In this document: one piece after another, positions 10,838-28,187 of the stretch
Layout: the number at the start of each line of letters is the position of its first letter
How positions within the stretch are numbered: the stretch's first letter is position 1
Origin: Dehalococcoidia bacterium
GTDB lineage: Bacteria; Chloroflexota; Dehalococcoidia; SHYB01
Direction of reading: 5' to 3'
DNA: 64,000 nt
Assembly: GCA_965207995.1 (NCBI GenBank)
Contig: CBDBNG010000001.1
Span: 4,681-68,680, forward strand
Notes under the pieces: generated by a model
Told to the model about the DNA's origin: nothing
The model's input: the letters and a program-made list of their open reading frames with translations, nothing else
Databases searched by the model: none
Made by a program: the position numbers and the translations under genes

Positions 10838-10859
10838 CTGCTGTAGTATACTACAGCAG
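10838..10859. promoter_or_regulatory. Perfect 22-bp palindrome CTGCTGTAGTA|TACTACAGCAG, a candidate operator 27 bp upstream of the HTH gene
   Basis: Seen directly. The reverse complement of ctgctgtagta is tactacagcag. Confidence 0.6.
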
Positions 10860-10886
10860 GGTCTTTAGTCTACGAGGAATCGAGCC

Positions 10887-11114: not shown

Positions 11115-11121
11115 GACAACC

Positions 11122-12336: not shown

Positions 12337-12343
12337 GGCGGTC

Positions 12344-12760
12344 ATGAGCGATATTCTGACAAAGGAAAGGCGTTCAGAGCTAATGTCCCGTGTCAAGAGC
12401 AGGGACACGTCACCAGAAGTGTTCGTCCGCAGGGCGGCTTGGGACGCTGGGTTTCGCTATCGGCTGAATGTTCGGGAATTGCCAGGGACACCAGACTTAG
12501 TGTTCCGTCGCTACGACACTGTAGCGCTAGTGCAGGGGTGCTTCTGGCACTGCCACAATTGCCGCAAAGGACGGCGCCGCCCGACTTCCAACCAAGCTTT
12601 CTGGAATCGCAAACTAGATGGTAACGAAGCGAGGGACGCCGCGAATCAAGCGAGGCTCCGGGAGATGGGCTGGACAGTGCTCTTGATTTGGGAATGCCAG
12701 CTTTATGAAGGGACAGAAGCCCTATTGGCACACCTTGGAGAGCTTCGGTCCGCTAGATGA
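12344..12760 (+). CDS. vsr: Very-short-patch repair endonuclease (Vsr)
   Basis: DTSPEVFVRRAAWDAGFRYRLNVRELPGTPDLVFRRYDTVALVQGCFWHCHNC...NQAFWNRKLDGNEARD...GWTVLLIWECQL matches the Vsr signature. RBS GAGG lies upstream of ATG 12344. Confidence 0.85.
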   Translation: MSDILTKERRSELMSRVKSRDTSPEVFVRRAAWDAGFRYRLNVRELPGTPDLVFRRYDTVALVQGCFWHCHNCRKGRRRPTSNQAFWNRKLDGNEARDAANQARLREMGWTVLLIWECQLYEGTEALLAHLGELRSAR

Positions 12761-15700: not shown

Positions 15701-15780
15701 AGATTCTCGACCCTCCGAATGGTGAAGGAGTGACATTCAGGATAGCTCCTCTGGAGGCAGTTAATGACCGGAGTCAATAG
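12757..15780 (+). CDS. 1007-aa protein with two GHKL ATPase domains. The N-terminal domain is MutL/MORC/Hsp90-like and the C-terminal domain is a histidine-kinase-type HATPase_c, with a long coiled-coil middle. Function unknown.
   Basis: N-terminal Bergerat motifs are ISELFKNAYDAYA, LWDNGLGMTREDI and GEKGIGRLAIGV. C-terminal HK motifs are FINLVDNAMYWL (N box), VRDNGPGIS (G1) and GGMGLGLYIARSQL (G2), with a possible H-box IIDHELQAVIRSL. The start ATG overlaps the vsr stop (ATGA). Confidence 0.7.
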   Translation: MSNSMNQVTAQFTASARTVDMLGRQQIAGIPNAISELFKNAYDAYADRVVVEYYQPEHLLVLWDNGLGMTREDIEQKWLVLGTDSKVGDRKGDLSAIAKELGLEHRNTVGEKGIGRLAIGVIGPQVLLLSRAKRVRESPKMVAVFVNWSLFELPGVSLNEIVVPLREFDHGILPNKATVASMVDEVRQNLKRLRRTGDEARIKEIEQQLDGFDFDPAAMQARFGDSTLSNAGFGTQFYIHPVDSVLNEALEERQRARTVGTRAARLKLRNMLVGFTNTMVHEDVQPPISTEFYYYPKMDVRVPIIGSEEFFTPEEFASADHHISGRFDERGQFTGTVSVYGNAVNNHVISWPEGRGETADCGPFHLNLAYVQGQEFETRMYVEDWRNLNRKLDEMGGLYIYRNGIRILPYGDPDVDFLRFEERRSRRAATYFFSYRRMFGTIELSNDRRYRLQEKAGREGFMENRAFRQFRDILEHFFTQLAADFFREDSPSGTFQVEREELSRQAKAARLRDKEVAPVRSRFVRELRRIKSDVESGTFEDRVEEVIERLGSDLNNSAALLDPRERQGAIVAASLTAVNEIENLRARYRPPEPEGFGANQSLRRELNEYGLLFASKEDRVLRPASIRVEEMLWESSEISGLASDRQRLLKDRLDRLIESEVTALDSDTQKASEEVDRVSQMAKEALSTQAIELRNTLDMIVSRVEESSLDLLSDSELASLAVSMTSEISILSEAKHRIIDDIRKQFAIVNVHPDESGTLITQGDVVGAMEEDIDSLRHDSFRDLEYVQLGMTIGIIDHELQAVIRSLRLNLGRLRSWAVRNEDLAEVYQGIRVNFDHLDSYLRLLTPLQRRSRRTLSEIKGSAIYNFIEELFATRFAEHDIRLEQATAFENYSLVSYPSTFYPVFINLVDNAMYWLQRRQSGRVISFDVEGDALLVRDNGPGISALDREAVFEAGFTRKPGGMGLGLYIARSQLRQVNYDIEILDPPNGEGVTFRIAPLEAVNDRSQ

Positions 15781-17467
15781 CTCGCTCGATTACGCCAGCC
15801 AATCGAGAGGAATCGCACAGCGATTTCTTCGTAATGTCCTTTTGCTGGACGACCGAGCCTCCATGGGGCCTTCGCGTATTTTGAGTAGACGGCAATCTGC
15901 TTTGGAGACCCCTGGTCCTGAATCCGTCGACGTTGAATTGCCTGCCGCTGGCCAGGTATTGGCTGGCGCGGAGTCTTTAGACGCTAAAGAGGTTGTTAGA
16001 GGGTTTGCCAAACTGGGCCTAATGTGTGCCCCGTTAGTCCCTGATATCGATGGTGCAGGAGAAGAAGATACTTTCGTGAACGATTTTTGCGAGGCTGCAG
16101 AAAGGGCAGACATCCTGGTTCTCGATTGGTGGATGAGCGGCAATCGGAATTGGAGCAAGCCTCAGTTGGCGCAAAGAGTGATTCGGAGAATTATTGAACG
16201 AGACCAAACTGCCGGGGGTAGGTTACGCTTAGTTGCAATCTATACTGGAGAACCAAATACAACTCGAATTCTGGAGAAGCTGAAGACTTTGGTGCGGCAA
16301 CGATATCAAGGATTCAACCTGTTGCCTGCAGAGGTGGCTGGTCAACCGAACGTTGATTGGCTGTCCAAAGGTCCATTCCGCTTGGTGGTCATTCCGAAGA
16401 ACCCTGGAGCAACTGTAGGTGATCCAATAGCGGGACGTGATTTGGCAGATCGGCTGGTACAGGAGTACTCACAGTTAACGCGTGGGTTACTGCGAAACGT
16501 AGCATTCTGTGGATTAGCGGCTTTGAGAGAGCGTGCCCATCAGTTGCTTGCTACCTTTGAGAATGACATTGACCCTGCATTCCTTATCCATCGAGCATTG
16601 CTAGATGATACTAATGACGCCGAATCCCATGTCATTGAGATACTGGGTTCGGAGTTGTTGGCAATTCTCGAAGACCAAGAAGTAGGTGCGGAAGTTGGAG
16701 ACAATGCCATAGATAGGTGGCTGAGTCACTATGGACAAGATGCATTCGTCAACGTGAGCGGCTTATTGAAGTGGGGACAGAGCACGATCGATGCATGGAG
16801 TCGAGTCTTGACTCGCGGCGCGGGCTACAACGGTCGTCCGGAAGGGGTGTCGAGGAAGGATGTGGACGAATTGGTTGAAGTGCTGAGAAGCGACGGAACG
16901 CAAGCTCTACTACCTAGAGAAGGGAACCTTAATGATGATAGCTATCAGGAGATGGCTCGGCAAGCAAACTTCAAACTCGCTTCTTTGATGAATACAAGAA
17001 ATGTGTACACAGACAAACATCCATATTTGACGTTAGGGACAGTTCTGTTTCGTAAACGCGACGGGAAGTACTTTGTTTGCCTCCAGCCGAAGTGCGATTC
17101 CGTTCATTTGAGGGGAAGCAGACCCTTTCCTTTACTTTCGCTGTCCATTGCGGAAGAGCATAGCAAATACAATTTAGTCCTCAGAGATGAAGGATTGGAG
17201 AACGAATGGGTCTGGCTCGTTGTCCGAGCGGGATCTAGGAGTCTCGAATTGCCTACATTCACGCCTGAAGAAACGTCTGGGAAGGTTATCGCGACAAAGA
17301 GAGCCGGGGGTCTTTCTTTCAAGGATGACAAGAATGCGGTATATCGTTGGGTGGCTGCGATGAAGGATGAACATGCCCTGAGGATTGTAAACGAACTTGC
17401 CTCTAATCTGGCTAGGCCGGGCCCAAACGACTCAGAATGGCTACGACGCAACTTCCCGCAGACATAG
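15764..17467 (+). CDS. 567-aa protein with N-terminal receiver (REC)-like domain and uncharacterised C-terminal region
   Basis: REC-like landmarks are NVLLLDD (beta1 acidic pair), ADILVLDWWM (phospho-acceptor Asp position) and LRLVAIYTGEP (Thr position). No recognisable effector motif was seen in the C-terminal 400 aa. It overlaps the upstream gene by 17 nt. Confidence 0.55.
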   Translation: MTGVNSSLDYASQSRGIAQRFLRNVLLLDDRASMGPSRILSRRQSALETPGPESVDVELPAAGQVLAGAESLDAKEVVRGFAKLGLMCAPLVPDIDGAGEEDTFVNDFCEAAERADILVLDWWMSGNRNWSKPQLAQRVIRRIIERDQTAGGRLRLVAIYTGEPNTTRILEKLKTLVRQRYQGFNLLPAEVAGQPNVDWLSKGPFRLVVIPKNPGATVGDPIAGRDLADRLVQEYSQLTRGLLRNVAFCGLAALRERAHQLLATFENDIDPAFLIHRALLDDTNDAESHVIEILGSELLAILEDQEVGAEVGDNAIDRWLSHYGQDAFVNVSGLLKWGQSTIDAWSRVLTRGAGYNGRPEGVSRKDVDELVEVLRSDGTQALLPREGNLNDDSYQEMARQANFKLASLMNTRNVYTDKHPYLTLGTVLFRKRDGKYFVCLQPKCDSVHLRGSRPFPLLSLSIAEEHSKYNLVLRDEGLENEWVWLVVRAGSRSLELPTFTPEETSGKVIATKRAGGLSFKDDKNAVYRWVAAMKDEHALRIVNELASNLARPGPNDSEWLRRNFPQT

Positions 17468-17746
17468 GTGGCTCGGTATGCAGGAGGCTTACGACCTGAG
17501 GCAGGCGCGAGGGCGAGCAATGGGGAAACGTGGTTGAGGACTCTAGGACTGCCATTCTGAGGCAGTTAGCGGAGAGAGACCATCTCCAAGGCTCTTGAGA
17601 TTGCGAACGAGATGAATCTTCAAGCCACCGACGGGTCACGTAGCTTGAGGGTCTCACGGAGCAAGTAGGCCCCTATATCAGAGCATGGGATGTTGACGAG
17701 TGCTACCTCACGGAGGAATTGACGCCTCAGAAATTCGCGACGGCAA

Positions 17747-18361
17747 TCAATCTCCCTTCACCCCGGCAGACTGGTGCTTGCGGACGTACTGGTCGAAGCG
17801 GTCCGCATATTCTCCAACCAATTGAACTGTTCTCGCTCCCATCCCCAGCAGGCTCGCGTTACCAGGGCTGTCCAGCGTCAGCAGAGGCTTACCCGTTTCA
17901 GCGAGCTTGTGGGCAAAGGCTTCAGTCTTACTTCCGGGTGCTGCGTGAGCGATGAAGACTCGCTGGGCGAGGTCGGCTACCAGATCATTGCGCTGGGCTG
18001 CGAGCTCCGCGGTCGGTCGTCGGGCTGTGGCCGGGAAGGGCGACAGGACCAGCAGGCGGCCGTCGTCTAGAGTTGGGCGCCATTCGCGAGGGATTCGCAT
18101 GTTGTCGATGCCGCGGGCCGGGCAGACGACCACCGGCTGACTTCCTCGAAGCAGCAGACGCAGACATTCCCGCTCCATCGGAGTTTGGAAGCCGCCGATG
18201 ACGGGAACGCCGGCATCGCGCATGGCTCTGGCAAGGTCATAGGTCTTCAGGATGAGATTGCCGGGGCAGCGATTGGAGCAGAACATGGCCGTAAGGGTCT
18301 CGTCAAGCAGGCTTAGGTTGCCCTTCGACTTGACTTCCGGTAGTAGCTCCAAGTTCACCAT
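17747..18361 (-). CDS. Stand-alone SLOG-superfamily (DprA/Smf/LOG-like Rossmann) domain protein
   Basis: GVPVIGGFQTPMERECLRLLLRGSQPVVVCPARGID...LLVLSPFP resembles the DprA/LOG Rossmann core. It lies directly downstream of an SMODS-like NTase on the same strand. Confidence 0.5.
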   Translation of the reverse strand: MVNLELLPEVKSKGNLSLLDETLTAMFCSNRCPGNLILKTYDLARAMRDAGVPVIGGFQTPMERECLRLLLRGSQPVVVCPARGIDNMRIPREWRPTLDDGRLLVLSPFPATARRPTAELAAQRNDLVADLAQRVFIAHAAPGSKTEAFAHKLAETGKPLLTLDSPGNASLLGMGARTVQLVGEYADRFDQYVRKHQSAGVKGD

Positions 18362-18377
18362 GCCGCCCCCGTCTGCC

Positions 18378-19223
18378 TTAGTTCCCTATGCAGAACAGGG
18401 CGTTGAACGCTGTCCTGGTCTTGCAGCGCTTGACCTCGGCGCGCATCTGTCCAAAGTACGTTGAGGCCCGCTGGCGAGTTCCAGAATCTGCCGGGCCAAG
18501 ATATTCGTCCACGTATCTCGACTGCCCCGTGGAATCTTTGATCGGACTCTTTACCGCATCCATCGAGTGCCCCAATAGGTGAATCAGCATGTTCTTCGGG
18601 TCGAGGGGTCCTTGATAGCCCTTGAACGCGTCGATTGCTAGAGACTCCATGTGGTAGCCACTGATCTTCCTGCTGGGACGGCTGATGAAACAGTCCGCCA
18701 TCGCCTTGGCAAGTTTGATTACCGGAACTACTCTGCCGTCCCTCGCCGTATTGACTTTGGCGAGGTTCCGGGCAAAGTCATCAGGCCGCGCCACGTTGCT
18801 CCACTGGTTGCTCCCCGGGTTGGCAATCCGAACGCCGCCAGTATTGGTCCGTAAGGCGGGCAGTATCTGAATCTCCGTCCCGTCGGAGTAGCTGACCGTC
18901 ACCGCTAGATTGCCCGCGCTTACGGTATTCTGCCGAAGCCGATCCTGGATGGTCTCCCGCACGTACTCTATGGCTCTTGCAGGAGGCTGATTTACAAGCG
19001 AAGACTGGTTCACTATGAGTAGAGCGTCGACATCGCTGAGGCCGGTCACGTAAGTGCCCTTCCGCACCGAACCGCCGAACATGGTTTGCACGACATCGCC
19101 CTTCTGCCTGAGGAACCCACACAAGTTTTCCAGACGCTGAGTGACAGTCTGCGTGTTCCTGCGGGCGTACTGTGCGAGCAATGCCTCGCAGTATTCATTG
19201 AACCTATCGTCTGGCACGGTCAT
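18378..19223 (-). CDS. SMODS / CD-NTase-like nucleotidyltransferase (Pol-beta superfamily)
   Basis: The FGGSVRKGTYVTGLSDVDALLIV motif is GS-x9-11-SDxD, with a later acidic residue in SYSDGTE. The start is set at MTVPDD (ATG 19223), which overlaps the vapC stop as ATGA. Confidence 0.6.
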   Translation of the reverse strand: MTVPDDRFNEYCEALLAQYARRNTQTVTQRLENLCGFLRQKGDVVQTMFGGSVRKGTYVTGLSDVDALLIVNQSSLVNQPPARAIEYVRETIQDRLRQNTVSAGNLAVTVSYSDGTEIQILPALRTNTGGVRIANPGSNQWSNVARPDDFARNLAKVNTARDGRVVPVIKLAKAMADCFISRPSRKISGYHMESLAIDAFKGYQGPLDPKNMLIHLLGHSMDAVKSPIKDSTGQSRYVDEYLGPADSGTRQRASTYFGQMRAEVKRCKTRTAFNALFCIGN

Positions 19224-19675
19224 GCGTCCGCTTCCGTCTCGACCAGATCGTCCAAGATGACGAAGGGCAAGCCCTCGACGCGGCGAAAGTCGGTGTCGTT
19301 TGTAATGAAGGCAGCGCAGCCAGCACTCAGAGCCGTCGCGGCGTGAAGTGCGTCGGGTGTCGCTAAGCCCGTCTCGGCGCGGATGCGAGCGGCATCTTCC
19401 CAAGTTGCCAGGGTAGCGGGGATGAGGTCCATCTCCGCAGCGGCAAGGATGGACCGAAAAAGCGCCTCAAGACGGGAGTTGCCGTCTCGCAGGGGTCTGA
19501 CCAAGGTTTCCAATGCAACCAACTCGCTGCTTACCAGAATGAACCGGCCTGCCTTGGCCTCTTCCCACATCGGAGCCAACAGACCGTGGTAAGGCTCAAT
19601 CCGTTCTACGCTGTAGATGATCGCATTGGCGTCGACGTAGACCAGCCCGCCGGCGGGCAGCCTCAACGGCCCCAT
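19220..19675 (-). CDS. vapC: PIN-domain toxin (VapC)
   Basis: LVYVDANAIIY...ITNDTDF has the PIN acidic residues. The gene is 151 aa and directly follows the antitoxin gene. Confidence 0.85.
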   Translation of the reverse strand: MGPLRLPAGGLVYVDANAIIYSVERIEPYHGLLAPMWEEAKAGRFILVSSELVALETLVRPLRDGNSRLEALFRSILAAAEMDLIPATLATWEDAARIRAETGLATPDALHAATALSAGCAAFITNDTDFRRVEGLPFVILDDLVETEADA

Positions 19676-19914
19676 GATTCCTTCTCTTCCTTCAAGTAGG
19701 CCGCCACTTCCGCCGCCGTCTTGAAAGCCAATCCCCCCGGCGCTTCGGCCAGAATGTCAACCGCAGACCGCCGTTCTGACACCGATGACTGGCTGACGAC
19801 CACATCGACGGACTCCCCCACAGGAAGCCCCTGGTCTACGATCTCTATCTTTCCCCCAGGCTGTACAGTCGTCCGTACATGCAGCGCTTTTTGCATCTGC
19901 TTGCCCTCCTTCAT
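19663..19914 (-). CDS. Antitoxin (VapB-like, probably AbrB/MazE-type swapped-hairpin)
   Basis: It is an 83-aa ORF immediately upstream of vapC with a 13-nt overlap. Confidence 0.6.
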   Translation of the reverse strand: MKEGKQMQKALHVRTTVQPGGKIEIVDQGLPVGESVDVVVSQSSVSERRSAVDILAEAPGGLAFKTAAEVAAYLKEEKESWGR

Positions 19915-19959
19915 TCACAAACTAGTCGTCGTACAACGGCCCCATAGTTCCTTCTCTTC

Positions 19960-20706
19960 CTACATATGGGCCGTAACGTCGGCCGCCATCTTGAAAGTCA
20001 GGCCTCCCGGCACTTCTTTCAGGATGTCAACCACGGACCGCCGTTCTGACACCAGCGATTGGCTGACGACCACATCGACGGACTCCTCCACGGGAAACTC
20101 ATGAGCCAATGCAAGAGTCAGTTGTCGGATGTCGGCCTGGGCGGACGGCTTGTTCCGTTGGAGACGCGGCTTACTGAGCGGCTTCAAGTTATCCTTCATC
20201 TCAACGAGCGTTTCTGCGAAGGTCAACAAGCCTCCAACGTCTTCCGCATAGACGACTAGCGCACCTTCGGCCCCATTGACCAACCCGCAGTTTGCAAGTT
20301 CAGCCGCCTTCAGTAGATTGCGCACACGGCCTTTGCGGCAATAGAAGGCAACCAGTGGATAAGGTTCATGGTGTCCGGGACCACCGGAGCAGCTCGATAT
20401 GGGAGCACAATTCGCCGCTGAAAGGGCGAACACCGCTGCGCCGACGCCAAGGTCGAGATAGGTCTCTTCACCGTTGAGATTCACTACTTCAATGCCAGGA
20501 TTCACTCCGGCTCCTGGCTGTGCAAGACCCTTATGCTCTTCCTCAAGCATCGTGCGGACGTCTTCCCACGTCGCCCCGCGTACGTCTATGTAGCCTCGTG
20601 AGAATATATCTTCGTCGGCGAGGTCACTCTCGGATGGCCATACCATCAGGGACGCATCGATTGTCCGCTGAATCACAGCCCGTTCTCTTGCGGCGGCCCT
20701 ATTCAT
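19960..20706 (-). CDS. Hypothetical 248-aa protein whose C-terminal ~45 aa duplicate the downstream antitoxin C-terminus
   Basis: Its C-terminus EESVDVVVSQSLVSERRSVVDILKEVPGGLTFK matches the antitoxin GESVDVVVSQSSVSERRSAVDILAEAPGGLAFK. The nucleotide repeat is 19935-20095 versus 19665-19825. Confidence 0.4.
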   Translation of the reverse strand: MNRAAARERAVIQRTIDASLMVWPSESDLADEDIFSRGYIDVRGATWEDVRTMLEEEHKGLAQPGAGVNPGIEVVNLNGEETYLDLGVGAAVFALSAANCAPISSCSGGPGHHEPYPLVAFYCRKGRVRNLLKAAELANCGLVNGAEGALVVYAEDVGGLLTFAETLVEMKDNLKPLSKPRLQRNKPSAQADIRQLTLALAHEFPVEESVDVVVSQSLVSERRSVVDILKEVPGGLTFKMAADVTAHM

Positions 20707-21454
20707 CCCAACCTACCTCGCAGGCAAGGTATTCGTGCAGTACCATCCTCACCAGGATTCCTTCTGGAACTTGAGCTACGGCGTAGCGATAAACGCCGTC
20801 TTGAACATCCTGCCAGCCATCAAAGTAGGCTTCTTGAGCAACTCCAGGGCTGTGGATGACGAATGCCCTTTGCATCGCTCTGCTGCCCACTTCCGGCCAA
20901 CCTGTGCCATGCGGGACGTTCTCGAATTGCTCAAGTTGTTGAGCTGTCAACGTCTGAATCGGACAAACTGACACGTGAGACGGTTGCTGAAGCATCGGTT
21001 CACCGAGTTCGTAGAGGACGTGCCCGCGGGCGTTCTTCACGATGACCCGCTCGACGCGGTCGAGTTCAGGCTCCCACAAGACTTCGACGTCACCCCACAG
21101 GTTCCCATGAACTGTTCGGGACCGGTCAATCCGGCTGCCCAATCGGGGGCTGTGGGTCAATATGCCGGAGGCAACAGGAAATCTAATCGGGTCTGGTCTG
21201 GTGGAGCCGCTGAGCACCGAGCCGAGAAAGGCAATGAGGTAATCCTCGTCCGACGAGAATCCAGAGTTGCACTGTCGGCACACTTCCACTACGGGCAAGT
21301 TCTCGGGGTACGGAGGGTTCAAGAGTCCCCGAGTCGGAACGTGGTCCCGATTGGATTCATCGGGTCCCAGCCCGTTCCCGCAATGGACGCAGAAGCCCTT
21401 GTTCCTACTGTCACTGTAGTCAGTCAGTTGGTCCATATTGCAAAGCCTCGCCAC
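20699..21454 (-). CDS. HNH-family endonuclease-like protein
   Basis: FCVHCGNGLGPDESNRDHVPTRGL...CRQCNS has HNH/zinc-finger-like Cys pairs and a DH dipeptide. It has a 4-nt overlap with the upstream MTase gene. Confidence 0.55.
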   Translation of the reverse strand: MARLCNMDQLTDYSDSRNKGFCVHCGNGLGPDESNRDHVPTRGLLNPPYPENLPVVEVCRQCNSGFSSDEDYLIAFLGSVLSGSTRPDPIRFPVASGILTHSPRLGSRIDRSRTVHGNLWGDVEVLWEPELDRVERVIVKNARGHVLYELGEPMLQQPSHVSVCPIQTLTAQQLEQFENVPHGTGWPEVGSRAMQRAFVIHSPGVAQEAYFDGWQDVQDGVYRYAVAQVPEGILVRMVLHEYLACEVGWDE

Positions 21455-24400
21455 TAGTCACTCCGCCCCATGCGGTACTTGATGTCGTAGTTGATGATGA
21501 AGTCCAACTCCTCCTCAGTGAGGCCGTAGTGCTTCGCCAGAACGCGGTCGATATCGTCTATAGTCTCCTTGCTCAACCGTGGGTACGTGGACTGAATTGT
21601 CAGACTTCCCCTGGTGCGGTAATTGATCGTTGACATCTCCGAATGGTTCTGTATGTCCTCCATGAGTTCCTTGGCGAGGTCTGCCAATCGTCGAACCCCA
21701 TCACCGTCATCGAGACTCAACCGCGTCATCTCGATTTCCCGCTTGTTCAGATTTCTGCAATCAGAAAACAAGGTGATCAGCCAATAGAAGAGAGTCGAAT
21801 TAAGAAACGCCAGCACAGCGCCCCTGCTGACCTGACTGTCAAATCTGAGCTCCTTTAGTTCAGAGGGCTTCCTCAGCTTGCCGGCCGCGTCATAGATTGC
21901 TGGAACGAAGTCTAGAATCTGCACGAAGCTGCTCAACTTCCTCGTATAGAAGATTGATTCTTGCCCGGATCTGCTCGCAGGTGCTAGAGGCCTACGATTG
22001 AACTTCCGAAGTATCGACATCTCGATAGGATCCCCAAACTTAGGCAGAAGACCATTGGAATCAGTTCCAGTGGACTCGATGAAAGTCAGCCTTTGGAACA
22101 GTGTGCCTCTTTCCGTGGCTTGCCACTTGTTGTAGGCGGTTGAGAACACCCTTCTTGCACTGGAGCCGACGTTTAGGAGATAAATGGAAAGTCGGCAGTG
22201 CTCGATCCCGTCAAAGAGTCTGCTGGGTCTGTCATTGAAGTGACTTACAACCATACCGCCAGCACTCGCGAGACAGCTTCTCAGGGGAGCGAACCCATCG
22301 GTGCATGCGCCAGACACCGGGACAATCATGCCAAATCGGCCATTGCTCAGGATTGTGAGTGACCGTTCCATCATCATTGCGTACAAGTTGCCGCACTCTT
22401 CGGTCACCATGCCACGAACCGAATACAAACCCTTGACCTTGGTGTACTCGACGTATGGCGGGTTACCAATCACCACATCAAAGCCGCCCTTGCCCATGAT
22501 CCCGTAGAATTCGACGAACCAGTGGAAGGGCTGATGTCTGGCGCACCAAGCGCCGTAGGCAGCGGGCTTGCTAGGGTCGATGCCGTACTCTCGAGCTAGG
22601 TGGCGATCCAGTTCGTCGTCGAGGCTGCGGAGGCGGTTGCGGAGGGCCTGCTTGTCGGCGGAAGTTACCTCTCCACCCAGCATGGTCTGCTGCCAACGGA
22701 ACTGGTTGAAGGCGGCGCTCGCGGTCTCGGCTTCCTCATTGATTCGGTCGAGGGCTGCCTGGTCTTCGGGGAACACCTGCCGGTGCTGGCCGTTGGGCAT
22801 GACCGTCATGGCCTGCCGCACAGCGTCCAGTGACGTGAAGCCGACCAGCGTGTTGCCGGCGCGGACGTTGAAGTCGATGTCCGGCAGCGGCTCGATTTGG
22901 TCGTAACTCTCCAACTGAGCGACCAACTTCAGGAAGAGACGCAGCTTGCATATCTCTACAGCCTCTTCCATGATGTCGACGCCGTAGAGGTTGTTCAGGA
23001 CGATGGACTTGAGGATGAAGTATCGCTCGCTTGGGTGCTTTTCTACCTGCTCCAGGATGCGGCGAAAGTCCCCTAGGTGCTCAGGACTGCGCTTGCGCTC
23101 AGATCTTTCGGCGTCGTCCAAGAATCCCCGCATTCCCTCCAGGCAGGCGGTGTAGAGGGGTTCAAGGACGTTCAGCGCGGCGAAGAGGAACGCGCCGGAG
23201 CCGCAGGCGGGGTCCAGGACAGAGATTCCGGTGTCACTGCGTTCGCGGTTGCCATAGAGAGCGTGCCAGAATGCCCGCAGCAATTCGGGTCCCTCGCTCT
23301 GCGCGATTACATCTCCGGCGAACCTCTCGACGTCAAGGTTGAGTGTGATGAGGTCGTCTACATCCTGCACTTCCCCCGATGCGAGCTTGGCGCGAACCTC
23401 TTCAAATCGAGTGCGGCGGGTTACAACCTCCCGCCATGTCTCGGTGGCGAGCGCGTAGTCGTCTGGCGCAGGGAGGTTCCATCCTCCGCGTTTGGGTACG
23501 TCGTCTATGCCCGCGGCGATATGGTCTGGCAGGTCAAGTGGCGCTTCAAGGCGCTTGGGGTCTTCCGGCTGTCCCGCGTTCCATGCCATGCCGTGGCCGA
23601 CGGCAGGATAGATGTATCGGTCCGGGTTGTCCCGAAGCAAGCGCCATACACCGCCATCCGGCCCAAAGGCCACGGGACACTCCTTCTTGGCGGCATCGAA
23701 CAAGGAGGGGATTACCGTGTTTCGTGAGATGTAGCCGGTAATGTCCTCCCTGGTGTAGTAGGCTCCCATCTGCTTCTGGTTGACGTACTTCTCGAAGATG
23801 TATCCAAGCACGTCGGGGTTGATCTCGTTGTCCTCCCGGTATGGCCGCTCGTCCAGGTGCCAGCGGTAGCCGTCGAAAAAGTCGAAGACCCGCTCGAACG
23901 CCTTGTCGGGGATGGAGATGTCCGGGTTGTCTCGCTCCAGATCGTGTACGTCGAAGAGGCCGCCATTGAGGAAGGGCACCCTGCCAAGAAGGGCGGCCAG
24001 GTCAGGAGCGCGTTGGGCTTCGGGCTGGCCGAGACCCTCATGGAACAGCCGCAGGAGGAAGAGGCGGTAGAACTGCTGGAAGCGTCCACTGCCGCTCTGC
24101 TCCTGGACCATCTTCAGGCGGTTGCGCAGGTAGTCGTGGTCCTCGTCTAGGAAGCCCTGCTTCTGGACGAAGTAGACGAACATCATGCGGTTGAGCATGA
24201 GGGAGGCATACCAGTCACGGTCGCCCTGGGCCGTGATCCCATCGATGAAGTTCCCGAATGTCTTCAACTCTTTCTGGAACCGTTCGTAGAAGCGCTTGGT
24301 AATCTTCTCGACATCTAATGCCGCCCGGACCCGAGAGGCGATAAGGGCAATGTTCAGCGACGGCTCTTCATCCAAGGAGACGAACAAAGGCTGAAGGCGT

Positions 24401-24792
24401 TGGAGTAGGTGGTCTCCGCTTGCGCCCGTAGTAACGGCGTACTCGCGGCAGGCGGCAGGCTTACCGCTTTCTCGCCTGACCCACTGCCAGACCTGCGCCT
24501 TACGGCCCGGGTCGGTGAAGATGATGAGGTGCTCGAATGTGCGCTTGGCAACCTCGCTCTCAATCTTGCGTCGGACCGGGTACTGGGGGACGTTGTTGTC
24601 GACGCTGGAATCGCACTCGTAGACTGCGAACCCCGCTTTCTCCGCAATTGGGTTGATCGTGTAGTCCCGGTCGTTGACTCGGACGACGAACGGCTCCGTG
24701 GGGTAGTGGTCCCATCCCAGCCCTTCGACGAAGAGACGCGGGAAGTCGAAAGCCCGTAGATGGGGGCGTAGCTCTTCAATCGAGACTGGCAT
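21454..24792 (-). CDS. Eco57I/PglX-family N6-adenine DNA methyltransferase (1112 aa; BREX PglX-like / DISARM DrmMI-like)
   Basis: Motif I is VLDPACGSGAFLFAAL, motif IV is VIGNPPYV, and a GAYYTRED motif lies upstream. Its size is typical of PglX-like enzymes. Confidence 0.8.
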   Translation of the reverse strand: MPVSIEELRPHLRAFDFPRLFVEGLGWDHYPTEPFVVRVNDRDYTINPIAEKAGFAVYECDSSVDNNVPQYPVRRKIESEVAKRTFEHLIIFTDPGRKAQVWQWVRRESGKPAACREYAVTTGASGDHLLQRLQPLFVSLDEEPSLNIALIASRVRAALDVEKITKRFYERFQKELKTFGNFIDGITAQGDRDWYASLMLNRMMFVYFVQKQGFLDEDHDYLRNRLKMVQEQSGSGRFQQFYRLFLLRLFHEGLGQPEAQRAPDLAALLGRVPFLNGGLFDVHDLERDNPDISIPDKAFERVFDFFDGYRWHLDERPYREDNEINPDVLGYIFEKYVNQKQMGAYYTREDITGYISRNTVIPSLFDAAKKECPVAFGPDGGVWRLLRDNPDRYIYPAVGHGMAWNAGQPEDPKRLEAPLDLPDHIAAGIDDVPKRGGWNLPAPDDYALATETWREVVTRRTRFEEVRAKLASGEVQDVDDLITLNLDVERFAGDVIAQSEGPELLRAFWHALYGNRERSDTGISVLDPACGSGAFLFAALNVLEPLYTACLEGMRGFLDDAERSERKRSPEHLGDFRRILEQVEKHPSERYFILKSIVLNNLYGVDIMEEAVEICKLRLFLKLVAQLESYDQIEPLPDIDFNVRAGNTLVGFTSLDAVRQAMTVMPNGQHRQVFPEDQAALDRINEEAETASAAFNQFRWQQTMLGGEVTSADKQALRNRLRSLDDELDRHLAREYGIDPSKPAAYGAWCARHQPFHWFVEFYGIMGKGGFDVVIGNPPYVEYTKVKGLYSVRGMVTEECGNLYAMMMERSLTILSNGRFGMIVPVSGACTDGFAPLRSCLASAGGMVVSHFNDRPSRLFDGIEHCRLSIYLLNVGSSARRVFSTAYNKWQATERGTLFQRLTFIESTGTDSNGLLPKFGDPIEMSILRKFNRRPLAPASRSGQESIFYTRKLSSFVQILDFVPAIYDAAGKLRKPSELKELRFDSQVSRGAVLAFLNSTLFYWLITLFSDCRNLNKREIEMTRLSLDDGDGVRRLADLAKELMEDIQNHSEMSTINYRTRGSLTIQSTYPRLSKETIDDIDRVLAKHYGLTEEELDFIINYDIKYRMGRSD

Positions 24793-27700
24793 CAGGAGTC
24801 GCCCTCCGTATCGAATAGGCCCAGGGAGCAGATGATCTGAGGCTCCTGGGCATCGACGGCAGCGTCCCCCGTCAGGCAGAGTCTGTCCTCCTCACGCAGC
24901 GAAATGACGATTTCGGCCAACTGGTCGTCGGAGACGCCGCTTCGGAGCTGCCGGTTCAGGGTGTCCACTGCCGACGGGCGCAGAGGATAGCGGTAGATGT
25001 CGTCGATGGCCTTGTGAAGTGCTTCCACGTCGAACAACTGACCCTTGATGGCGTCGGCGTGGGCTTTCAGGCGAGTGTAGGTGCGGAAGCGAGCGCCGGA
25101 GGGCCGTCCAAGCTGGCCTCCGACTCGCTTCTCCTCCATGACGACGTGCCTGACGCCCTCGGCAACAAGCTCGTGGTGGCTCTCGTGGTGAGGCTGAGCC
25201 GGGGTGTCAGGCTTGCACTCGGCGGCGGAGAGAATTTCAAGCTGCGACTCGGTGATGCTCTGTCCATCGCGGTCCACGTATGCCAGGGCATTGTTGCCAT
25301 CGGCGGTGCGCATGAACACCAGCACGCCTTCGGGCCGTTGAGCAATGGGCGCGTGCTCACGCGAGGAGAAGACGACGTCCGGCAAGTCAGCCACGGCCTT
25401 CTCCAGTCGCGGGTCTGACCCGATGGCGTTCTTCCATATCTGGTAGGCGTGGGACGCCAGGTCTACGTCGCCCTCCGGGTCACCGTCCAGGATGCCGGCT
25501 CGCTCGTGGTACAGGTTGAGGATTGCCTGATCGTCGTCTTCATCCTCGAAAAACGCCTCGTCTGCGCCGACCACCTCGGCGTTCTCCCTGAGCCGCTCCC
25601 GGACCCGGCCGCGCAGGTCGATGATGCGCTCGACACCCTCGGCCGGTAGGAAGGAGTGGCAGAGAATCTCCTCCGCCTTCTGTCCGATGCGGTCGACGCG
25701 GCCAGCACGCTGGATGAGACGGATGATTGCCCAGGGCAGGTCGTAATTCACAACTACGTGGGAGTCCTGGAGGTTCTGGCCCTCGCTCAGCACGTCGGTG
25801 GCGACTAGGACGCGAAGCTCCCTCTCAGGTTTGCTCTGGCCCGGCCGCTGGTTACTCTCCGGGCTGAATCGCCATGCCGAGTCCGTGGGGTCGGCGGAAC
25901 TGCCGGTGACTCCTGCCATGTCCGCAACTCCTCTCTTCTTGAGCTGCGCTTCCAGGTAGTAAACGGTGTCGGCGAATTGAGAGAACACCAGCACCTTCCG
26001 GTCTGGGAATGTCTTCGTCAGCAGTGAATTGAGCGCGTCGAGCTTTGCGTCCTTGGCGGGGTCCCACTCTCCGTAGGTCTGGAGTATGTCCAGGAGCGCG
26101 TTGGAGTCCGAAAGAAGCTCGCTTTCAAGGGAACCTTTGAATAGATCGGCGCGGAGCCACTTGAATCGGCGACTGTAGCGGCCCTCGTACTCAACGTAAA
26201 TCTGGGCAGCCCTCGCCTCGAAGTCGGAGGTAGTCCAAGCGCTGCCGGTCTTCTCGACCGCTTCCTCCTGATCGTCGTCATCAGGGTCGAAGAGAGCGCC
26301 CTTCGCCTGGTCCGCGTCCTCGTCGGTGAATCGCGAGTCCAGCATCTCGGCATCCTGCGTGCCAAGCGGCAAAGGGAGGCCGTTCCTGATGGCGTGGAGG
26401 AAGACGTAGTTGCGGAGCACGTGACGCTCGACCGATTGCAGGAAGGCCGCGCCACTGCTCTCCAGGCGTTTGAACAGGTTGGTGCGGCAGAATCCGATGA
26501 GCCGCTTGCCAGCCCGCGAAAGGTCGTCGATCTGACCCTCCTCTTTCTTGCTGTGTGGTGTCTCCGGGTTATCGAGCACGTAGTTACCCAGGCCGTACCT
26601 GGGCAGGTGCAGGTGTTTCACTATGTCGACCACCTTCGGCGAGTACAGCTTGGCGTATTGGTCATCGGGGTTGGAGTCGTCGATGGCGAACTTGACTGTC
26701 TTAGGTACGCGCGTAGGGAAGAAAGAGCGGGTCCCGTCCTCGTAGGTGAGGAACTTACGGCGAGTCTCCTGGTCCGTCTCGGCATAGTTGTCCTGGATGA
26801 AGCTACGGGTGCGGCGCACCAGGTAGAGGCGCATCAGGTCTCGCCAGTCGTCGGCGTACTCGCTGAAGTCGAAGGCTGCCAACGTGCGGAGTCCAGCCTG
26901 GTGGCGCCGGACGAACTCCACCTCGCCCAACTCACGCAGGAGTCGTTCGGGGCGGATGCCCAGGTCCTGGTCTTCCTCCACGAAGATGCGGAGTTGGCTG
27001 GACAAATCCAAGTACGTCTTGTTGTAGGGCGTGGCCGATAGAAGGATGCACTTGCTCTCGTTGGCTCGAACGTACTCTTGGATGGCTCTGTAGCGGCGGC
27101 CCTCGCGGTTACGGAGGTTGTGGCTCTCGTCGATGACGACAAGGCGGTAACGGCGCAAGGTGGGCAATTCGCCGAGCACCCGGCTCAGGGATAGCACTCT
27201 GGCCCGAAGCTGGTACTGGTACGCGTAGTCTTCCCACATCGGGACGAGGTTCTTCGGGCAGATGATGAGGGTCTCCAACCCGTAGTCGTCCTCGAAGATG
27301 CGAGCGACGGCGGTGGCCATAAGCGTCTTGCCAAGTCCCACCACGTCCCCGATGAGAACCCCGTTGCGCTTGTTCAGGTGATGGGCCGCAATCTTGACCG
27401 CTGCGGCCTGGAAGTCGAAGAGCCGGTCGCCGAAAACCTTGGGAATCCTGAACTCAGCGAGGCCGGCGCGAGCTTCGTGGGAGAGGTGATAGGCCATTTT
27501 CAGGTAGACGTGGTAGGGAGGTATCAGGGTCTCCCGCGCCCAGCTCTTTTCGATGATCTGGAGCAGCTCGTCCGTGATGTCCACGCAGAAGCGGTCGTTC
27601 CACCTGTCCTCGAACCACTGCTTGAGCTTCACCGTTGCGTCCTGGTCAAGCACGTCCACGTTCAACTCGCCCTGTGCCGACAGACCGGCGAAGGTCAGGT

Positions 27701-28187
27701 TGCTGCTTCCCAGGTAGCCCACGATGGGGTTGATGGGATCGTTGCGAAACATGAGGTAGAGCTTCGCGTGTAGCGGGTGACCGAGAAAGAGCTTGACTAC
27801 GACCTTCTTGGCGCGAAGCTGCGCGGCCAGTTGTCGCAAGGTCCTTTCGTCGGCATTGGTAGGAGCGCCGATGGTGAGCTGCTGGCGAAGCTGTTCGGCC
27901 AACTGGACTCTCAGACGGTGCGCCGTCTGGTTGTCCATGCCCGAGGGCCTATCGATTAAACTCAGGGCATCCCGTAGGTCTTCGTGCGGAAGTCTCTGCA
28001 TCCCGATGAGTACGCGACACGGCCCGTCACCGTCACTCCAGCCATCTACCTGCGGCGCAAGCCCGCCCCAACCGCGCAGGTTGAAATAGCCTACGCAGAA
28101 GTCTGCTCTGGAAGAGAGCTTCAGAGTCTCCTGTAACGCAGGCAGGAGACTGTAACCGGGCGAGAGGTTGTCGAAGATACGCGGCAT
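24792..28187 (-). CDS. PLD-family nuclease domain fused to SNF2-family helicase (1131 aa), with a ~300-aa uncharacterised C-terminal extension
   Basis: The N-terminal HKD motif is HAKLYLMF...GSSNLTFAGL. The helicase carries GDVVGLGKT (Walker A), VIDESHNLRN (DExH), LLSATPYNKT and QRAGRVDRIGQ (motif VI). Confidence 0.8.
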   Translation of the reverse strand: MPRIFDNLSPGYSLLPALQETLKLSSRADFCVGYFNLRGWGGLAPQVDGWSDGDGPCRVLIGMQRLPHEDLRDALSLIDRPSGMDNQTAHRLRVQLAEQLRQQLTIGAPTNADERTLRQLAAQLRAKKVVVKLFLGHPLHAKLYLMFRNDPINPIVGYLGSSNLTFAGLSAQGELNVDVLDQDATVKLKQWFEDRWNDRFCVDITDELLQIIEKSWARETLIPPYHVYLKMAYHLSHEARAGLAEFRIPKVFGDRLFDFQAAAVKIAAHHLNKRNGVLIGDVVGLGKTLMATAVARIFEDDYGLETLIICPKNLVPMWEDYAYQYQLRARVLSLSRVLGELPTLRRYRLVVIDESHNLRNREGRRYRAIQEYVRANESKCILLSATPYNKTYLDLSSQLRIFVEEDQDLGIRPERLLRELGEVEFVRRHQAGLRTLAAFDFSEYADDWRDLMRLYLVRRTRSFIQDNYAETDQETRRKFLTYEDGTRSFFPTRVPKTVKFAIDDSNPDDQYAKLYSPKVVDIVKHLHLPRYGLGNYVLDNPETPHSKKEEGQIDDLSRAGKRLIGFCRTNLFKRLESSGAAFLQSVERHVLRNYVFLHAIRNGLPLPLGTQDAEMLDSRFTDEDADQAKGALFDPDDDDQEEAVEKTGSAWTTSDFEARAAQIYVEYEGRYSRRFKWLRADLFKGSLESELLSDSNALLDILQTYGEWDPAKDAKLDALNSLLTKTFPDRKVLVFSQFADTVYYLEAQLKKRGVADMAGVTGSSADPTDSAWRFSPESNQRPGQSKPERELRVLVATDVLSEGQNLQDSHVVVNYDLPWAIIRLIQRAGRVDRIGQKAEEILCHSFLPAEGVERIIDLRGRVRERLRENAEVVGADEAFFEDEDDDQAILNLYHERAGILDGDPEGDVDLASHAYQIWKNAIGSDPRLEKAVADLPDVVFSSREHAPIAQRPEGVLVFMRTADGNNALAYVDRDGQSITESQLEILSAAECKPDTPAQPHHESHHELVAEGVRHVVMEEKRVGGQLGRPSGARFRTYTRLKAHADAIKGQLFDVEALHKAIDDIYRYPLRPSAVDTLNRQLRSGVSDDQLAEIVISLREEDRLCLTGDAAVDAQEPQIICSLGLFDTEGDS

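What the first reader, a model, noticed from the sequence alone, without database searches (positions are those of the whole stretch)
17747..19914. VapB-VapC, SMODS-like nucleotidyltransferase and stand-alone SLOG protein in one overlapping minus-strand operon
The NTase has the CD-NTase/SMODS-type GS-x-GT...SDVD active-site signature. The downstream 204-aa protein has a DprA/LOG-like Rossmann core; SLOG domains have been proposed as ligand sensors partnered with SMODS synthetases. Here the SLOG protein carries no fused effector. The NTase start is joined to vapC by an ATGA overlap. The PIN RNase may therefore act as the effector of a nucleotide-signalling module, or this is simply a TA pair stacked on a minimal CBASS-like pair. 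Either way it is an unusual arrangement.
Basis: partly seen in the sequence, partly recalled or inferred. Interest (0 to 1): 0.6.

Follow-up and report, generated by a model that had tools for sequence, protein, structure and literature searches.

The report
Defence genes nested in restriction operon
The four genes are real neighbours, but they are not one four-part machine: a toxin-antitoxin pair and a CBASS-type signalling enzyme that lacks its usual partner sit as inserted cargo inside a larger restriction-type operon, and the DprA-like protein is that operon's own last gene.

Summary
The four ORFs exist as described. They are VapB, a PIN-domain VapC with its acidic residues intact, a genuine CD-NTase and a 204-aa DprA-fold protein (called D here).

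They form the 3' end of an eight-gene minus-strand operon (28187 to 17747). The operon begins with an HKD/PLD-SNF2 helicase and an Eco57I-type IIG methyltransferase.

Comparative data change the reading of D.
- In metagenome loci found with D, 19 of 29 with enough upstream sequence have the IIG methyltransferase upstream. Only the 2 closest relatives have the NTase.
- Some D homologues are fused to an IIG-like N-terminal part.
- The interval between the methyltransferase and D is a variable cargo slot.

In uncultured Dehalococcoidia the slot holds VapBC followed by the NTase, seen in about 35 loci. All four genes are under purifying selection (dN/dS 0.14-0.22), and their alleles reassort freely.

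The NTase belongs to the type IV CBASS clade. It lacks the glycine-rich N-terminal tail and the Cap9/Cap10 genes. In sister loci it is followed by a TPALS (Cap17-N) SLOG protein, which is absent here. What reads its signal in this operon is unknown.

Verdict: stacked modules, a new variant of known kinds, of moderate interest.

The parts
24792..28187 (-). HKD/PLD nuclease plus SNF2 helicase (1131 aa); first gene of the operon frame
   Evidence: Pfam PLDc_2, SNF2-rel_dom and Helicase_C. PADLOC C3a139 'HKD+Snf2' 2e-49, with DrmD-like hits. The same protein precedes the IIG methyltransferase in loci found with D: L108, L106, L127, L143.
21454..24792 (-). Eco57I/MmeI-type IIG methyltransferase (1112 aa), with the NPPY motif intact
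   Evidence: PADLOC REase_MTase_IIG PDLC03628, 1216 bits, full length. Pfam Eco57I 6e-23. Found upstream in about half of the loci found with the NTase and in 19 of 29 informative loci found with D.
20699..21454 (-). p251, an HNH-like protein; cargo in the variable slot
   Evidence: Weak Pfam HNH_5 match (0.0069). Homologues sit in the same slot in L010, L016, L019 and L041.
19960..20706 (-). p248, a chimeric ORF: an unknown N-terminal part of about 200 aa fused to a copy of the VapB C-terminus (a vapB-vapC relic, 19934-20103)
   Evidence: 170-nt direct repeat, 82% identical to vapB 19664-19833, followed by a 7-codon vapC remnant. The same relic is present in L045 and L147. No Pfam or PADLOC hit.
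19663..19914 (-). VapB-like antitoxin (83 aa; 77 aa if it starts at 19896)
   Evidence: Overlaps vapC by 13 nt in every locus. No Pfam or PDB match. dN/dS 0.14. Its allele history correlates with that of VapC (Spearman 0.55).
19220..19675 (-). VapC PIN-domain toxin (151 aa)
   Evidence: Pfam PIN 4.1e-20. D15, E56, D108 and D127 are invariant or nearly so. dN/dS 0.16.
18378..19223 (-). CD-NTase of the type IV CBASS (CdnD) clade, lacking the Gly-rich N-terminal tail (281 aa; 279 aa if it starts at GTG 19217)
   Evidence: Family assignment. Alignment with Pseudanabaena and Bacillus type IV cyclases shows about 30 N-terminal residues missing, including MGGSGG. G50 G51 S52 D64 D66 are invariant. 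dN/dS 0.22.
17747..18361 (-). D, a stand-alone DprA-fold (SLOG-superfamily) protein of 204 aa; last gene of the operon frame
   Evidence: AF2 pLDDT 85. Foldseek matches: H. pylori DprA (TM 0.72), S. pneumoniae DprA, ShosA. PADLOC PsyrA 1.9e-13. Family-wide linkage to the IIG methyltransferase and fusions to it.

Best explanation
**What is shown**

The region is a single co-directional operon of eight genes, 28187 to 17747 on the minus strand. Its conserved frame is a restriction-like trio:
- an HKD/PLD-SNF2 helicase-nuclease;
- an Eco57I-type IIG methyltransferase;
- as the last gene, the 204-aa DprA-fold protein D.

Between the methyltransferase and D lies a cargo slot that holds different small defence genes in different genomes. 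In an uncultured Dehalococcoidia lineage the slot has acquired two items:
1. A VapBC toxin-antitoxin pair.
2. Directly behind it, a CD-NTase derived from the type IV CBASS clade. It has lost the N-terminal tail and the Cap9/Cap10 priming genes.

In sister loci the NTase is followed by its own TPALS (Cap17-N-type) SLOG protein. That gene is missing here. The packing, the recurrence of the order, purifying selection on all four genes and free reassortment of their alleles are all shown.

**What is inferred**

- The helicase-nuclease and methyltransferase act as a first-line, modification-dependent restriction system.
- D assists them as an ssDNA-binding, possibly RecA-contacting, adaptor. This is by analogy with DprA and ShosA.
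- VapBC and the NTase are independent second-line modules riding in the operon. Comparable cases are PrrC inside EcoprrI and the defence genes inside hmaABC operons.
- VapC would be released when labile VapB is lost.
- The NTase would make a nucleotide signal on infection.

**What reads the NTase signal**

The reader of the signal in this TPALS-less operon is not identified. My ranking is:
- a receptor encoded elsewhere in the genome, about 0.25;
- D, about 0.15;
- VapBC, about 0.1;
- the remainder: no reader, or decay of the NTase.
For: **Operon frame**
- Pfam and PADLOC calls on the helicase and the methyltransferase.
- In metagenome loci found with D that have at least 2.5 kb upstream, 19 of 29 have the IIG methyltransferase on the same strand and 8 have it directly adjacent. 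The NTase is present in 2 of 29 (Fisher p = 5e-6).
- About 8 of the top 150 D representatives are fusions of about 700 aa. The two whose sequences were read (P0246, P0254) have an N-terminal part homologous to the IIG methyltransferase with the NPPY motif lost.

**Cargo slot**
- Contents seen in different loci: Schlafen-AlbA2, DUF3644/PDC-S19, YhcG nuclease, MTaX1-HNH, HicAB, DUF2283 and p251.
- A vapB-vapC relic is fused to p248.

**Modularity**
- These combinations exist, always in the same order: NTase-TPALS alone (7 loci, never with VapBC); VapBC-NTase-D; VapBC-NTase-TPALS-D; NTase-D; VapBC-NTase; and VapBC-D without an NTase (L147).
- Pairwise-identity correlations: VapB-VapC 0.55, VapC-NTase 0.13, NTase-D 0.29.

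**Function retained**
- dN/dS is 0.14-0.22 for all four genes among 17 TPALS-less operons.
- There are at least three distinct NTase-to-D junction types, each shared by diverged loci.

**Origin of the NTase**
- Best PDB match is CdnD of type IV CBASS (bioRxiv 10.1101/2025.04.06.647259).
- Plasmid homologues at 38-42% identity sit behind QueC-like and Cap10-like genes and carry an MGGSGG tail.

**Precedents**
- Defence genes inserted in hmaABC operons (PMC11232893).
- ShosA, a DprA-like protein that binds ssDNA and RecA (PMC12961424).
Against: - The VapC clade sampled from its own side (9 places from 6 look-ups) is followed by the NTase in six places. In two places an IS element follows (one of them still keeps NTase fragments and D), and only once does D follow directly. 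VapBC and the NTase may therefore be more than neighbours.
- Presence of VapC and presence of D are associated among loci found with the NTase (27/8/4/15, p = 1e-4). This count is not corrected for shared ancestry.
- An NTase kept intact under purifying selection without its TPALS partner needs some reader, and defence systems are usually self-contained.
- Homologous recombination between related islands would preserve gene order without selection, so recurrence of the order is weak evidence either way.
- No experiment bears on any of the functions proposed.
Confidence: 0.55

Rival explanations
1. Integrated nucleotide-signalling module. The NTase senses infection and makes a cyclic oligonucleotide. 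D acts as the SLOG-type receptor. The signal releases or activates the VapC PIN RNase as the killing effector, for example by displacing VapB.
For: - The order is fixed and the spacing tight: vapC-to-NTase is -4 to +21 nt and NTase-to-D is -1 to 16 nt.
- All four genes are under purifying selection although the TPALS partner is absent.
- Presence of VapC and presence of D are associated.
- D has a nucleotide-binding Rossmann fold of the SLOG superfamily.
- VapBC occupies the position that Cap9/Cap10 hold in type IV CBASS.
Against: - D's family is tied to the IIG methyltransferase and occurs without any NTase in 27 of 29 informative loci. It is also fused to IIG-like proteins.
- The residues invariant across the whole D family are the same in operons with and without the NTase.
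- NTase-TPALS pairs exist without VapBC or D. VapBC-D exists without the NTase.
- VapC and NTase alleles reassort freely (0.13, against 0.55 for the interacting pair VapB-VapC).
- Tight spacing holds for the whole eight-gene operon, so it is not specific to these junctions.
- No paper links a CD-NTase to a PIN or DprA-like effector.
Confidence: 0.12
2. The NTase signals in trans. The TPALS protein, or another cyclic-nucleotide receptor encoded elsewhere in the same genome, reads the signal. The operon copy is then one of several sensor paralogues sharing a common effector.
For: - Several genomes carry 2-3 NTase loci (OZ242262.1, CBDCYU01, CBDEFX01, CATOSD01).
- In two of these four genomes, another NTase locus does carry the TPALS gene (L004 with L010; L045 with L013).
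- The NTase remains under purifying selection.
Against: - Defence systems are normally self-contained cassettes.
- In two of the four multi-locus genomes no TPALS gene was seen at the other NTase loci.
- No TPALS homologue occurs in the 64-kb window.
- Whole genomes could not be scanned.
Confidence: 0.2
3. Inert remnant. The NTase is an orphan left after loss of its effector and is drifting towards decay. VapBC is only an addiction module that stabilises the island.
For: - Frameshifted, truncated or IS-disrupted NTase copies exist (L020, L037, L044, L050, L052, L139, L142).
- No recognised effector is present in the window.
- Other TA pairs such as HicAB accumulate in the same slot.
Against: - NTase dN/dS is 0.22 across 17 TPALS-less operons with dS about 0.7.
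- About 20 of 23 TPALS-less copies are full length.
- The catalytic GGS and DxD motifs are invariant.
- The TPALS-less junction types are old and shared by diverged loci.
Confidence: 0.1

Closest known systems
Type IV CBASS CD-NTase (CdnD with Cap9/QueC-like and Cap10/TGT-like; PDB 9ntn; bioRxiv 10.1101/2025.04.06.647259)
   Same: It is the closest solved relative of the NTase (1.5e-53). Plasmid homologues at 38-42% identity sit in canonical type IV operons. The GS...DxD catalytic core is shared.
   Different: - The window protein lacks the ~30-residue N-terminal region, including the Gly-rich start that type IV systems deazaguanylate.
- No Cap9 or Cap10 homologue occurs in the window.
- No transmembrane effector follows the NTase.
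- VapBC occupies the upstream position instead.
Cap17/TPALS-type CBASS effectors (Pfam PF18178, Cap17-like_N)
   Same: In 18 sister loci the same NTase clade is followed by a 280-aa protein matching PF18178 at 2.5e-39. This is the SLOG sensor family paired with CD-NTases (bioRxiv 10.1101/2023.01.24.525353).
   Different: - That gene is absent from the window.
- Where it is present, it lacks the PNP or TIR killing domain of Cap17-type effectors.
- The window's 204-aa protein does not match PF18178.
VapBC type II toxin-antitoxin pairs
   Same: A small antitoxin gene overlaps a PIN-domain toxin gene by 13 nt. The acidic PIN residues are conserved. VapB and VapC co-vary.
   Different: - VapB has no recognisable DNA-binding domain.
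- No conserved promoter or operator travels with the pair.
- In 6 of the 9 places sampled from the VapC side, this clade sits directly in front of a CD-NTase.
DprA and DprA-like defence proteins (ShosA of ShosTA, PsyrA of PsyrTA)
   Same: The Rossmann fold matches (TM 0.68-0.73 to DprA, 0.71 to ShosA), and there is a PADLOC PsyrA hit. Sequence motifs equivalent to DprA's GSR, GxD and RNR motifs are conserved (the motif equivalence is my own reading).
   Different: - It consists of the Rossmann domain only, with no SAM or winged-helix domains.
- It is not paired with a PRTase or RecQ-like toxin.
- Its family partner is an IIG methyltransferase with an HKD-SNF2 helicase.
Defence genes nested inside restriction or helicase-methylase operons (hmaABC hotspot, PMC11232893; PrrC within EcoprrI, from my own knowledge)
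   Same: A conserved frame of helicase/nuclease and methylase genes carries a variable internal slot filled with unrelated defence genes.
   Different: - The frame here is HKD-SNF2 plus an Eco57I-type methyltransferase plus a DprA-like protein.
- That trio matches no complete system in PADLOC. There are only an IIG RM model and a candidate 'HKD+Snf2' model.
- The cargo includes a CD-NTase.
DISARM class 1 (DrmD SNF2 helicase, DrmMI methylase, DrmC PLD)
   Same: The helicase hits DrmD models (1e-30) and the methyltransferase hits DrmMI (1e-23). A PLD nuclease module is present.
   Different: - No DrmA or DrmB is present.
- The PLD domain is fused to the helicase.
- A DprA-like third gene is present.

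Membership tests
CBASS (any type) | A CD-NTase/SMODS enzyme with the GS...[DE]x[DE] catalytic core | tested here: met
   Pfam SMODS above cutoff, PADLOC cyclase 2.3e-93, NCBIfam CBASS_cyclase_b 222 bits (cutoff 200), PDB CdnD 1.5e-53. GGS and DVD are invariant.
CBASS (any type) | An adjacent Cap effector that combines a cyclic-nucleotide sensor with a killing domain | tested here: not met
   No PADLOC effector hit on any neighbouring gene. D matches only the DprA and PsyrA models. The clade's TPALS protein is absent from the window.
Type IV CBASS | Cap9 (QueC-like) and Cap10 (TGT-like) genes, and a Gly-rich CD-NTase N-terminus as the acceptor for modification | tested here: not met
   tblastn with Pseudanabaena and Bacillus Cap9 and Cap10 finds nothing in the window. 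The N-terminal ~30 residues are missing.
MNT/AbiEii minimal nucleotidyltransferase antitoxins | A best match to NTP_transf_2/MNT models and pairing with a HEPN or AbiEi partner | tested here: not met
   NTP_transf_2 scores 20.4 bits, below its cutoff of 21, and covers only residues 34-76. The full-length matches are to CD-NTase models.
VapBC type II TA | A PIN-domain toxin with conserved acidic active-site residues | tested here: met
   PF01850 at 4.1e-20. D15, E56, D108 and D127 are conserved in 16-31 homologues.
VapBC type II TA | A small upstream antitoxin gene, translationally coupled, that co-evolves with the toxin | tested here: met
   13-nt overlap in every locus. VapB-VapC identity correlation is 0.55, the highest among the gene pairs.
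VapBC type II TA | The antitoxin neutralises the toxin and autoregulates the promoter | not testable with these tools
   VapB has no recognisable DNA-binding domain. No conserved upstream operator was found.
Genuine DprA (transformation/recombination mediator) | A DprA Rossmann domain | tested here: met
   Foldseek TM 0.68-0.73 to H. pylori and S. pneumoniae DprA. By sequence the Pfam score is 26.3 bits (cutoff 29.6) and TIGR00732 scores 23 bits (cutoff 191).
Genuine DprA (transformation/recombination mediator) | The full architecture (N-terminal SAM and/or C-terminal winged-helix domain) and equivalog-level similarity | tested here: not met
   The protein is 204 aa, a single domain with a variable tail. 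TIGR00732 is far below its cutoff. It forms a distinct family of 362 50%-identity clusters at E<1e-30.
SLOG sensors of SMODS systems (TPALS, PF18178) | A match to the TPALS/Cap17-like_N model, and family-wide adjacency to a CD-NTase | tested here: not met
   D has no PF18178 hit. The NTase is adjacent in only 2 of 29 informative loci found with D.
Helicase-methylase restriction-like system (HKD-SNF2 + IIG MTase + DprA-like) | Co-directional, adjacent helicase-nuclease, Eco57I-type methyltransferase and D, recurring across lineages | tested here: met
   The window operon. L106, L108, L127 and L143 carry all three genes. IIG is upstream of D in 19 of 29 loci. IIG-D fusions exist.
Helicase-methylase restriction-like system (HKD-SNF2 + IIG MTase + DprA-like) | Modification-dependent restriction activity and a requirement for D | not testable with these tools
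   No experimental data exist. The methyltransferase NPPY motif is intact in the window sequence.

The most novel reading that the evidence does not exclude
In this Dehalococcoidia lineage a tail-less CD-NTase of the type IV clade has been rewired. Its nucleotide signal is read inside the operon, either by the DprA-fold protein D, which would couple cyclic-nucleotide signalling to a helicase-methylase restriction complex, or by VapBC, which would make a PIN RNase a CBASS effector. VapBC would then take over the regulatory position that Cap9/Cap10 hold in type IV systems.
Probability: 0.15. Interest if true: 0.8.

Novelty: new variant of a known kind. Interest (0 to 1): 0.5.

Why it matters
If the stacked reading is right, three things follow.

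1. A widespread restriction-like trio (HKD-SNF2 helicase, Eco57I-type methyltransferase, DprA-fold protein) has an internal cargo slot, and PADLOC's models do not describe it as a system. It offers a new place to look for defence genes. It also gives a second context, after ShosA and PsyrA, in which a DprA-like protein serves immunity.

2. A CD-NTase can be kept under purifying selection for a long time without its cognate receptor gene and without the Cap9/Cap10 priming machinery of its parent clade. This raises the question of what activates such enzymes and what reads their signal.

3. It is a caution for annotation. Gene adjacency and a SLOG-superfamily fold are not enough to call a protein a SMODS sensor.

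If the integrated reading is right, it would be the first link from CBASS signalling to a PIN toxin or to a restriction complex.

Tried and rejected
**Searches that returned nothing useful**
- PDB sequence searches with D, VapB and VapC found nothing useful.
- tblastn of D against plasmids found no match, even at E 1e-3.
- Exact look-ups of the window's NTase and D found no record. Cluster look-ups returned no names.
- The promoter/terminator scan of 17300-20300 gave nothing above the shuffled expectation.
- A search for a conserved promoter or operator upstream of vapB across about 37 loci found only the ribosome-binding site conserved.
- Literature searches found no paper combining CD-NTase with DprA-like. 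The one paper combining CD-NTase with VapC mentions an unrelated vapC-like gene in a DISARM locus.

**Hypotheses rejected**
- NTase as an MNT/AbiEii antitoxin: the models say CD-NTase.
- D as a fragment of a real dprA: it is a complete, conserved and distinct family.
- Membership in type IV CBASS: no Cap9/Cap10 and no N-terminal tail.
- D as the TPALS sensor: a different family holds that role.
- The ATGA overlap as specific evidence of vapC-NTase coupling: that ATG is out of frame in most homologues, and tight packing is a property of the whole operon.

**Not done**
- No structure model of the NTase was made, because the sequence evidence was decisive.
- No complex prediction was possible with the tools.
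Full report
**1. What is in the window**

- **VapB-like protein, 19663-19914.** Most homologues start at MQKALH, which corresponds to 19896.
- **VapC, 19220-19675.** Pfam PIN at 4.1e-20. Acidic residues D15, E56, D108 and D127 are conserved.
- **Nucleotidyltransferase, 18378-19223.**
- **204-aa protein, called D here, 17747-18361.**

vapB and vapC overlap by 13 nt. The vapC stop and an NTase ATG form ATGA. The NTase and D are 16 nt apart.

The unit does not begin at vapB. Four more genes lie upstream on the same strand, with 1-8 nt overlaps or gaps of at most 63 nt:
- p248, 19960-20706;
- p251, HNH-like, 20699-21454;
- an Eco57I/MmeI-type IIG methyltransferase, 21454-24792 (PADLOC PDLC03628, 1216 bits);
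- an HKD/PLD-SNF2 helicase, 24792-28187.

The stretch from about 10 to 24 kb has lower G+C (0.51-0.59) than the rest of the window (0.64-0.70).

**2. The NTase is a genuine CD-NTase**

- Pfam SMODS scores 43.6 bits (cutoff 26.5).
- The PADLOC CBASS cyclase model matches at 2.3e-93 over residues 7-271.
- NCBIfam CBASS_cyclase_b scores 222 bits (cutoff 200).
- The only PDB relative is CdnD of a type IV CBASS, at 1.5e-53 (bioRxiv 10.1101/2025.04.06.647259).
- The MNT-type model NTP_transf_2 is below its cutoff.
- GGS and DVD are invariant in 26 homologues.

Annotated plasmid homologues at 38-42% identity sit in canonical type IV operons, in the order QueC-like Cap9, Cap10, cyclase. Their cyclases begin with MGGSGG. 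The window enzyme lacks about 30 N-terminal residues, including that glycine-rich start. In type IV systems the N-terminal glycine is the site of deazaguanylation, and that modification is required for defence (same preprint). No Cap9 or Cap10 homologue occurs in the window.

**3. D is a DprA-fold protein, not a fragment and not the CBASS-type SLOG**

- The AF2 model (pLDDT 85) matches H. pylori and S. pneumoniae DprA Rossmann domains and ShosA (TM about 0.7). MoCo-carrier, LOG and YpsA proteins match more weakly.
- By sequence D falls just below the Pfam DprA cutoff and hits PADLOC PsyrA.
- It is a complete, conserved family. A word-indexed search returned 1620 hits. A search of 50%-identity cluster representatives found 362 clusters at E<1e-30.
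- The core, residues 14-175, is conserved and the tail is variable.

**4. Loci found with the NTase**

A scan of one genome per species gave 58 loci. Nearly all are from uncultured Dehalococcoidia, SAR202 or Caldilineaceae MAGs, and some genomes hold 2-3 copies.

The gene order is constant and the content is modular:
- VapB-VapC-NTase-D, about 20 loci;
- VapB-VapC-NTase-c5-D, about 6 loci;
- NTase-c5 alone, 7 loci, never with VapBC;
- NTase-D or NTase-c5-D without VapC, 8 loci;
- VapBC-NTase without D, 3-4 loci;
- solo NTases inside other defence islands.

c5 is a 280-aa protein matching Pfam Cap17-like_N (TPALS) at 2.5e-39. It matches only the sensor part of PADLOC CBASS effector models. It is therefore the SLOG partner of this NTase clade, and it is absent from the window.

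The IIG methyltransferase lies upstream in about half of the loci, separated from vapB by variable genes.

**5. Loci found with D**

A metagenome scan with a diverse D alignment gave 80 loci at 45-77% identity to the window's D.
- Only the two closest carry VapBC-NTase.
- Among the 29 loci with at least 2.5 kb upstream, 19 have the IIG methyltransferase on the same strand. In 8 of these it is directly adjacent.
- Where there is enough sequence, the HKD-SNF2 helicase precedes the methyltransferase (L106, L108, L127, L143).
- The genes found between the methyltransferase and D include Schlafen-AlbA2/HATPase_c_4, DUF3644 (PDC-S19), YhcG nuclease and MTaX1-HNH. In VapC-centred loci they also include HicAB and DUF2283.
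- About 8 of the top 150 D representatives are proteins of about 700 aa. In the two whose sequences were read (P0246, P0254), the N-terminal part is homologous to the IIG methyltransferase with the NPPY motif lost.

D is therefore the last gene of a helicase-methylase-D frame that has an internal cargo slot. The VapBC-NTase unit is one kind of cargo.

**6. Sampling from the VapC side**

Six look-ups of VapC homologues (61-85% identity) returned nine places:
- five with VapBC-NTase-D;
- one with VapBC-NTase-c5-D;
- two where an IS element follows vapC: one interrupts the NTase and still keeps D downstream, the other has neither;
- one (L147) with VapBC followed directly by D, overlapping it by 4 nt, with no NTase.

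**7. Independence of the parts**

- Pairwise-identity matrices over 21 complete operons correlate at 0.55 for VapB-VapC. The values are 0.13 for VapC-NTase, 0.29 for NTase-D and 0.23 for VapC-D. Alleles therefore reassort at the module boundaries.
- All four genes are nonetheless under purifying selection in 17 c5-less operons (dN/dS 0.14, 0.16, 0.22, 0.20).
- The c5-less NTase-to-D junction exists in at least three types, each shared by diverged loci. The NTase has therefore persisted without c5.
- Upstream of vapB only the ribosome-binding site is conserved.
- In most homologues the NTase starts at [A/G]TG CCA GAC GAT, 3 nt after the vapC stop, and the ATG of ATGA is out of frame. The overlap in the window may therefore be incidental.
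- The 3' end of p248 is an 82%-identical copy of the vapB 3' part plus a 7-codon vapC relic. The same relic is present in L045 and L147. It is a recombination scar at the cassette boundary.

**8. Interpretation**

*Shown:*
- the architecture of the eight-gene operon;
- the family assignments of the eight genes;
- recurrence of the gene order;
- modularity of the content;
- selective constraint on the four genes.

*Inferred:*
- The helicase-nuclease and methyltransferase act as a restriction-like first line of defence.
- D acts as an ssDNA-binding adaptor for them, by analogy with DprA and with ShosA. ShosA binds ssDNA and RecA (PMC12961424).
- VapBC and the NTase are second-line modules nested in the operon. 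Other defence genes are nested in hmaABC operons in the same way (PMC11232893). PrrC nested in EcoprrI is a further example, from my own knowledge.

Candidates are a receptor elsewhere in the genome, D, or VapBC. I could not test these.

No paper in the searched library links a CD-NTase with a DprA-like or PIN partner.

**9. Verdict**

- The CD-NTase assignment is correct.
- 'SLOG sensor partnered with the synthetase' is not supported at the family level.
- 'PIN as effector' remains an unexcluded minority reading.

The finding is a new variant of known kinds, of moderate interest.

Noticed in passing
window 12757-17467 (+): A 1007-aa protein with an N-terminal GHKL (HATPase_c_3) domain, a HEF_HK domain and a histidine-kinase ATPase domain. 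It overlaps by 17 nt a 567-aa Response_reg_2 protein. The pair is convergent with the operon and looks like a conflict-type two-component system. The N-terminus also hits BbrUII/HgiDII-type restriction models.
   Followed up: no
window 19934-20103 and 19960-20706 (-): p248 is a chimera. An unknown N-terminal part of about 200 aa is fused in frame to a copy of the VapB C-terminus. The DNA copy is 82% identical to vapB and is followed by a 7-codon vapC remnant. The same relic lies upstream of vapB in L045 and L147.
   Followed up: partly
window 28691-30085 (-): A 464-aa protein with three HTH_3 domains lies just upstream of the helicase gene. It is a possible regulator of the operon.
   Followed up: no
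window ~10000-24000: G+C falls to 0.51-0.59 here, against 0.64-0.70 elsewhere in the window. This fits a horizontally acquired defence island. A C5 DNA methylase lies at 11038-12336 (+).
   Followed up: no
P0246, P0254 (metagenome proteins); L088:5454-6911: Natural fusions exist between an IIG-methyltransferase-like N-terminal part (NPPY motif lost) and the D domain. A separate fusion joins the IIG N-terminal domain to sigma-70 regions 2 and 4 and sits directly upstream of D.
   Followed up: partly
L017, L018, L022, L023, L035, L036, L052 (c5 gene, e.g. L017:6850-7692): The CD-NTase is paired with a TPALS-only protein of 280 aa. It has a Cap17-like_N sensor domain and a tail of about 60 residues, with no PNP, TIR or other killing domain. 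How such a pair would kill or arrest the cell is unclear.
   Followed up: partly
OZ242262.1 (L001, L048, L053) and three other MAGs: Single Dehalococcoidia genomes carry two or three paralogous copies of the NTase locus, each with a different architecture.
   Followed up: no
L006/L008:7556-11374; L001/L002 downstream of D: In sister loci D is followed by other defence systems: a Dsr2-like SIR2 protein (PADLOC 2.8e-156), or a GHKL restriction ATPase with a Vsr-Dcm methylase. The operon therefore sits in a larger defence island.
   Followed up: no
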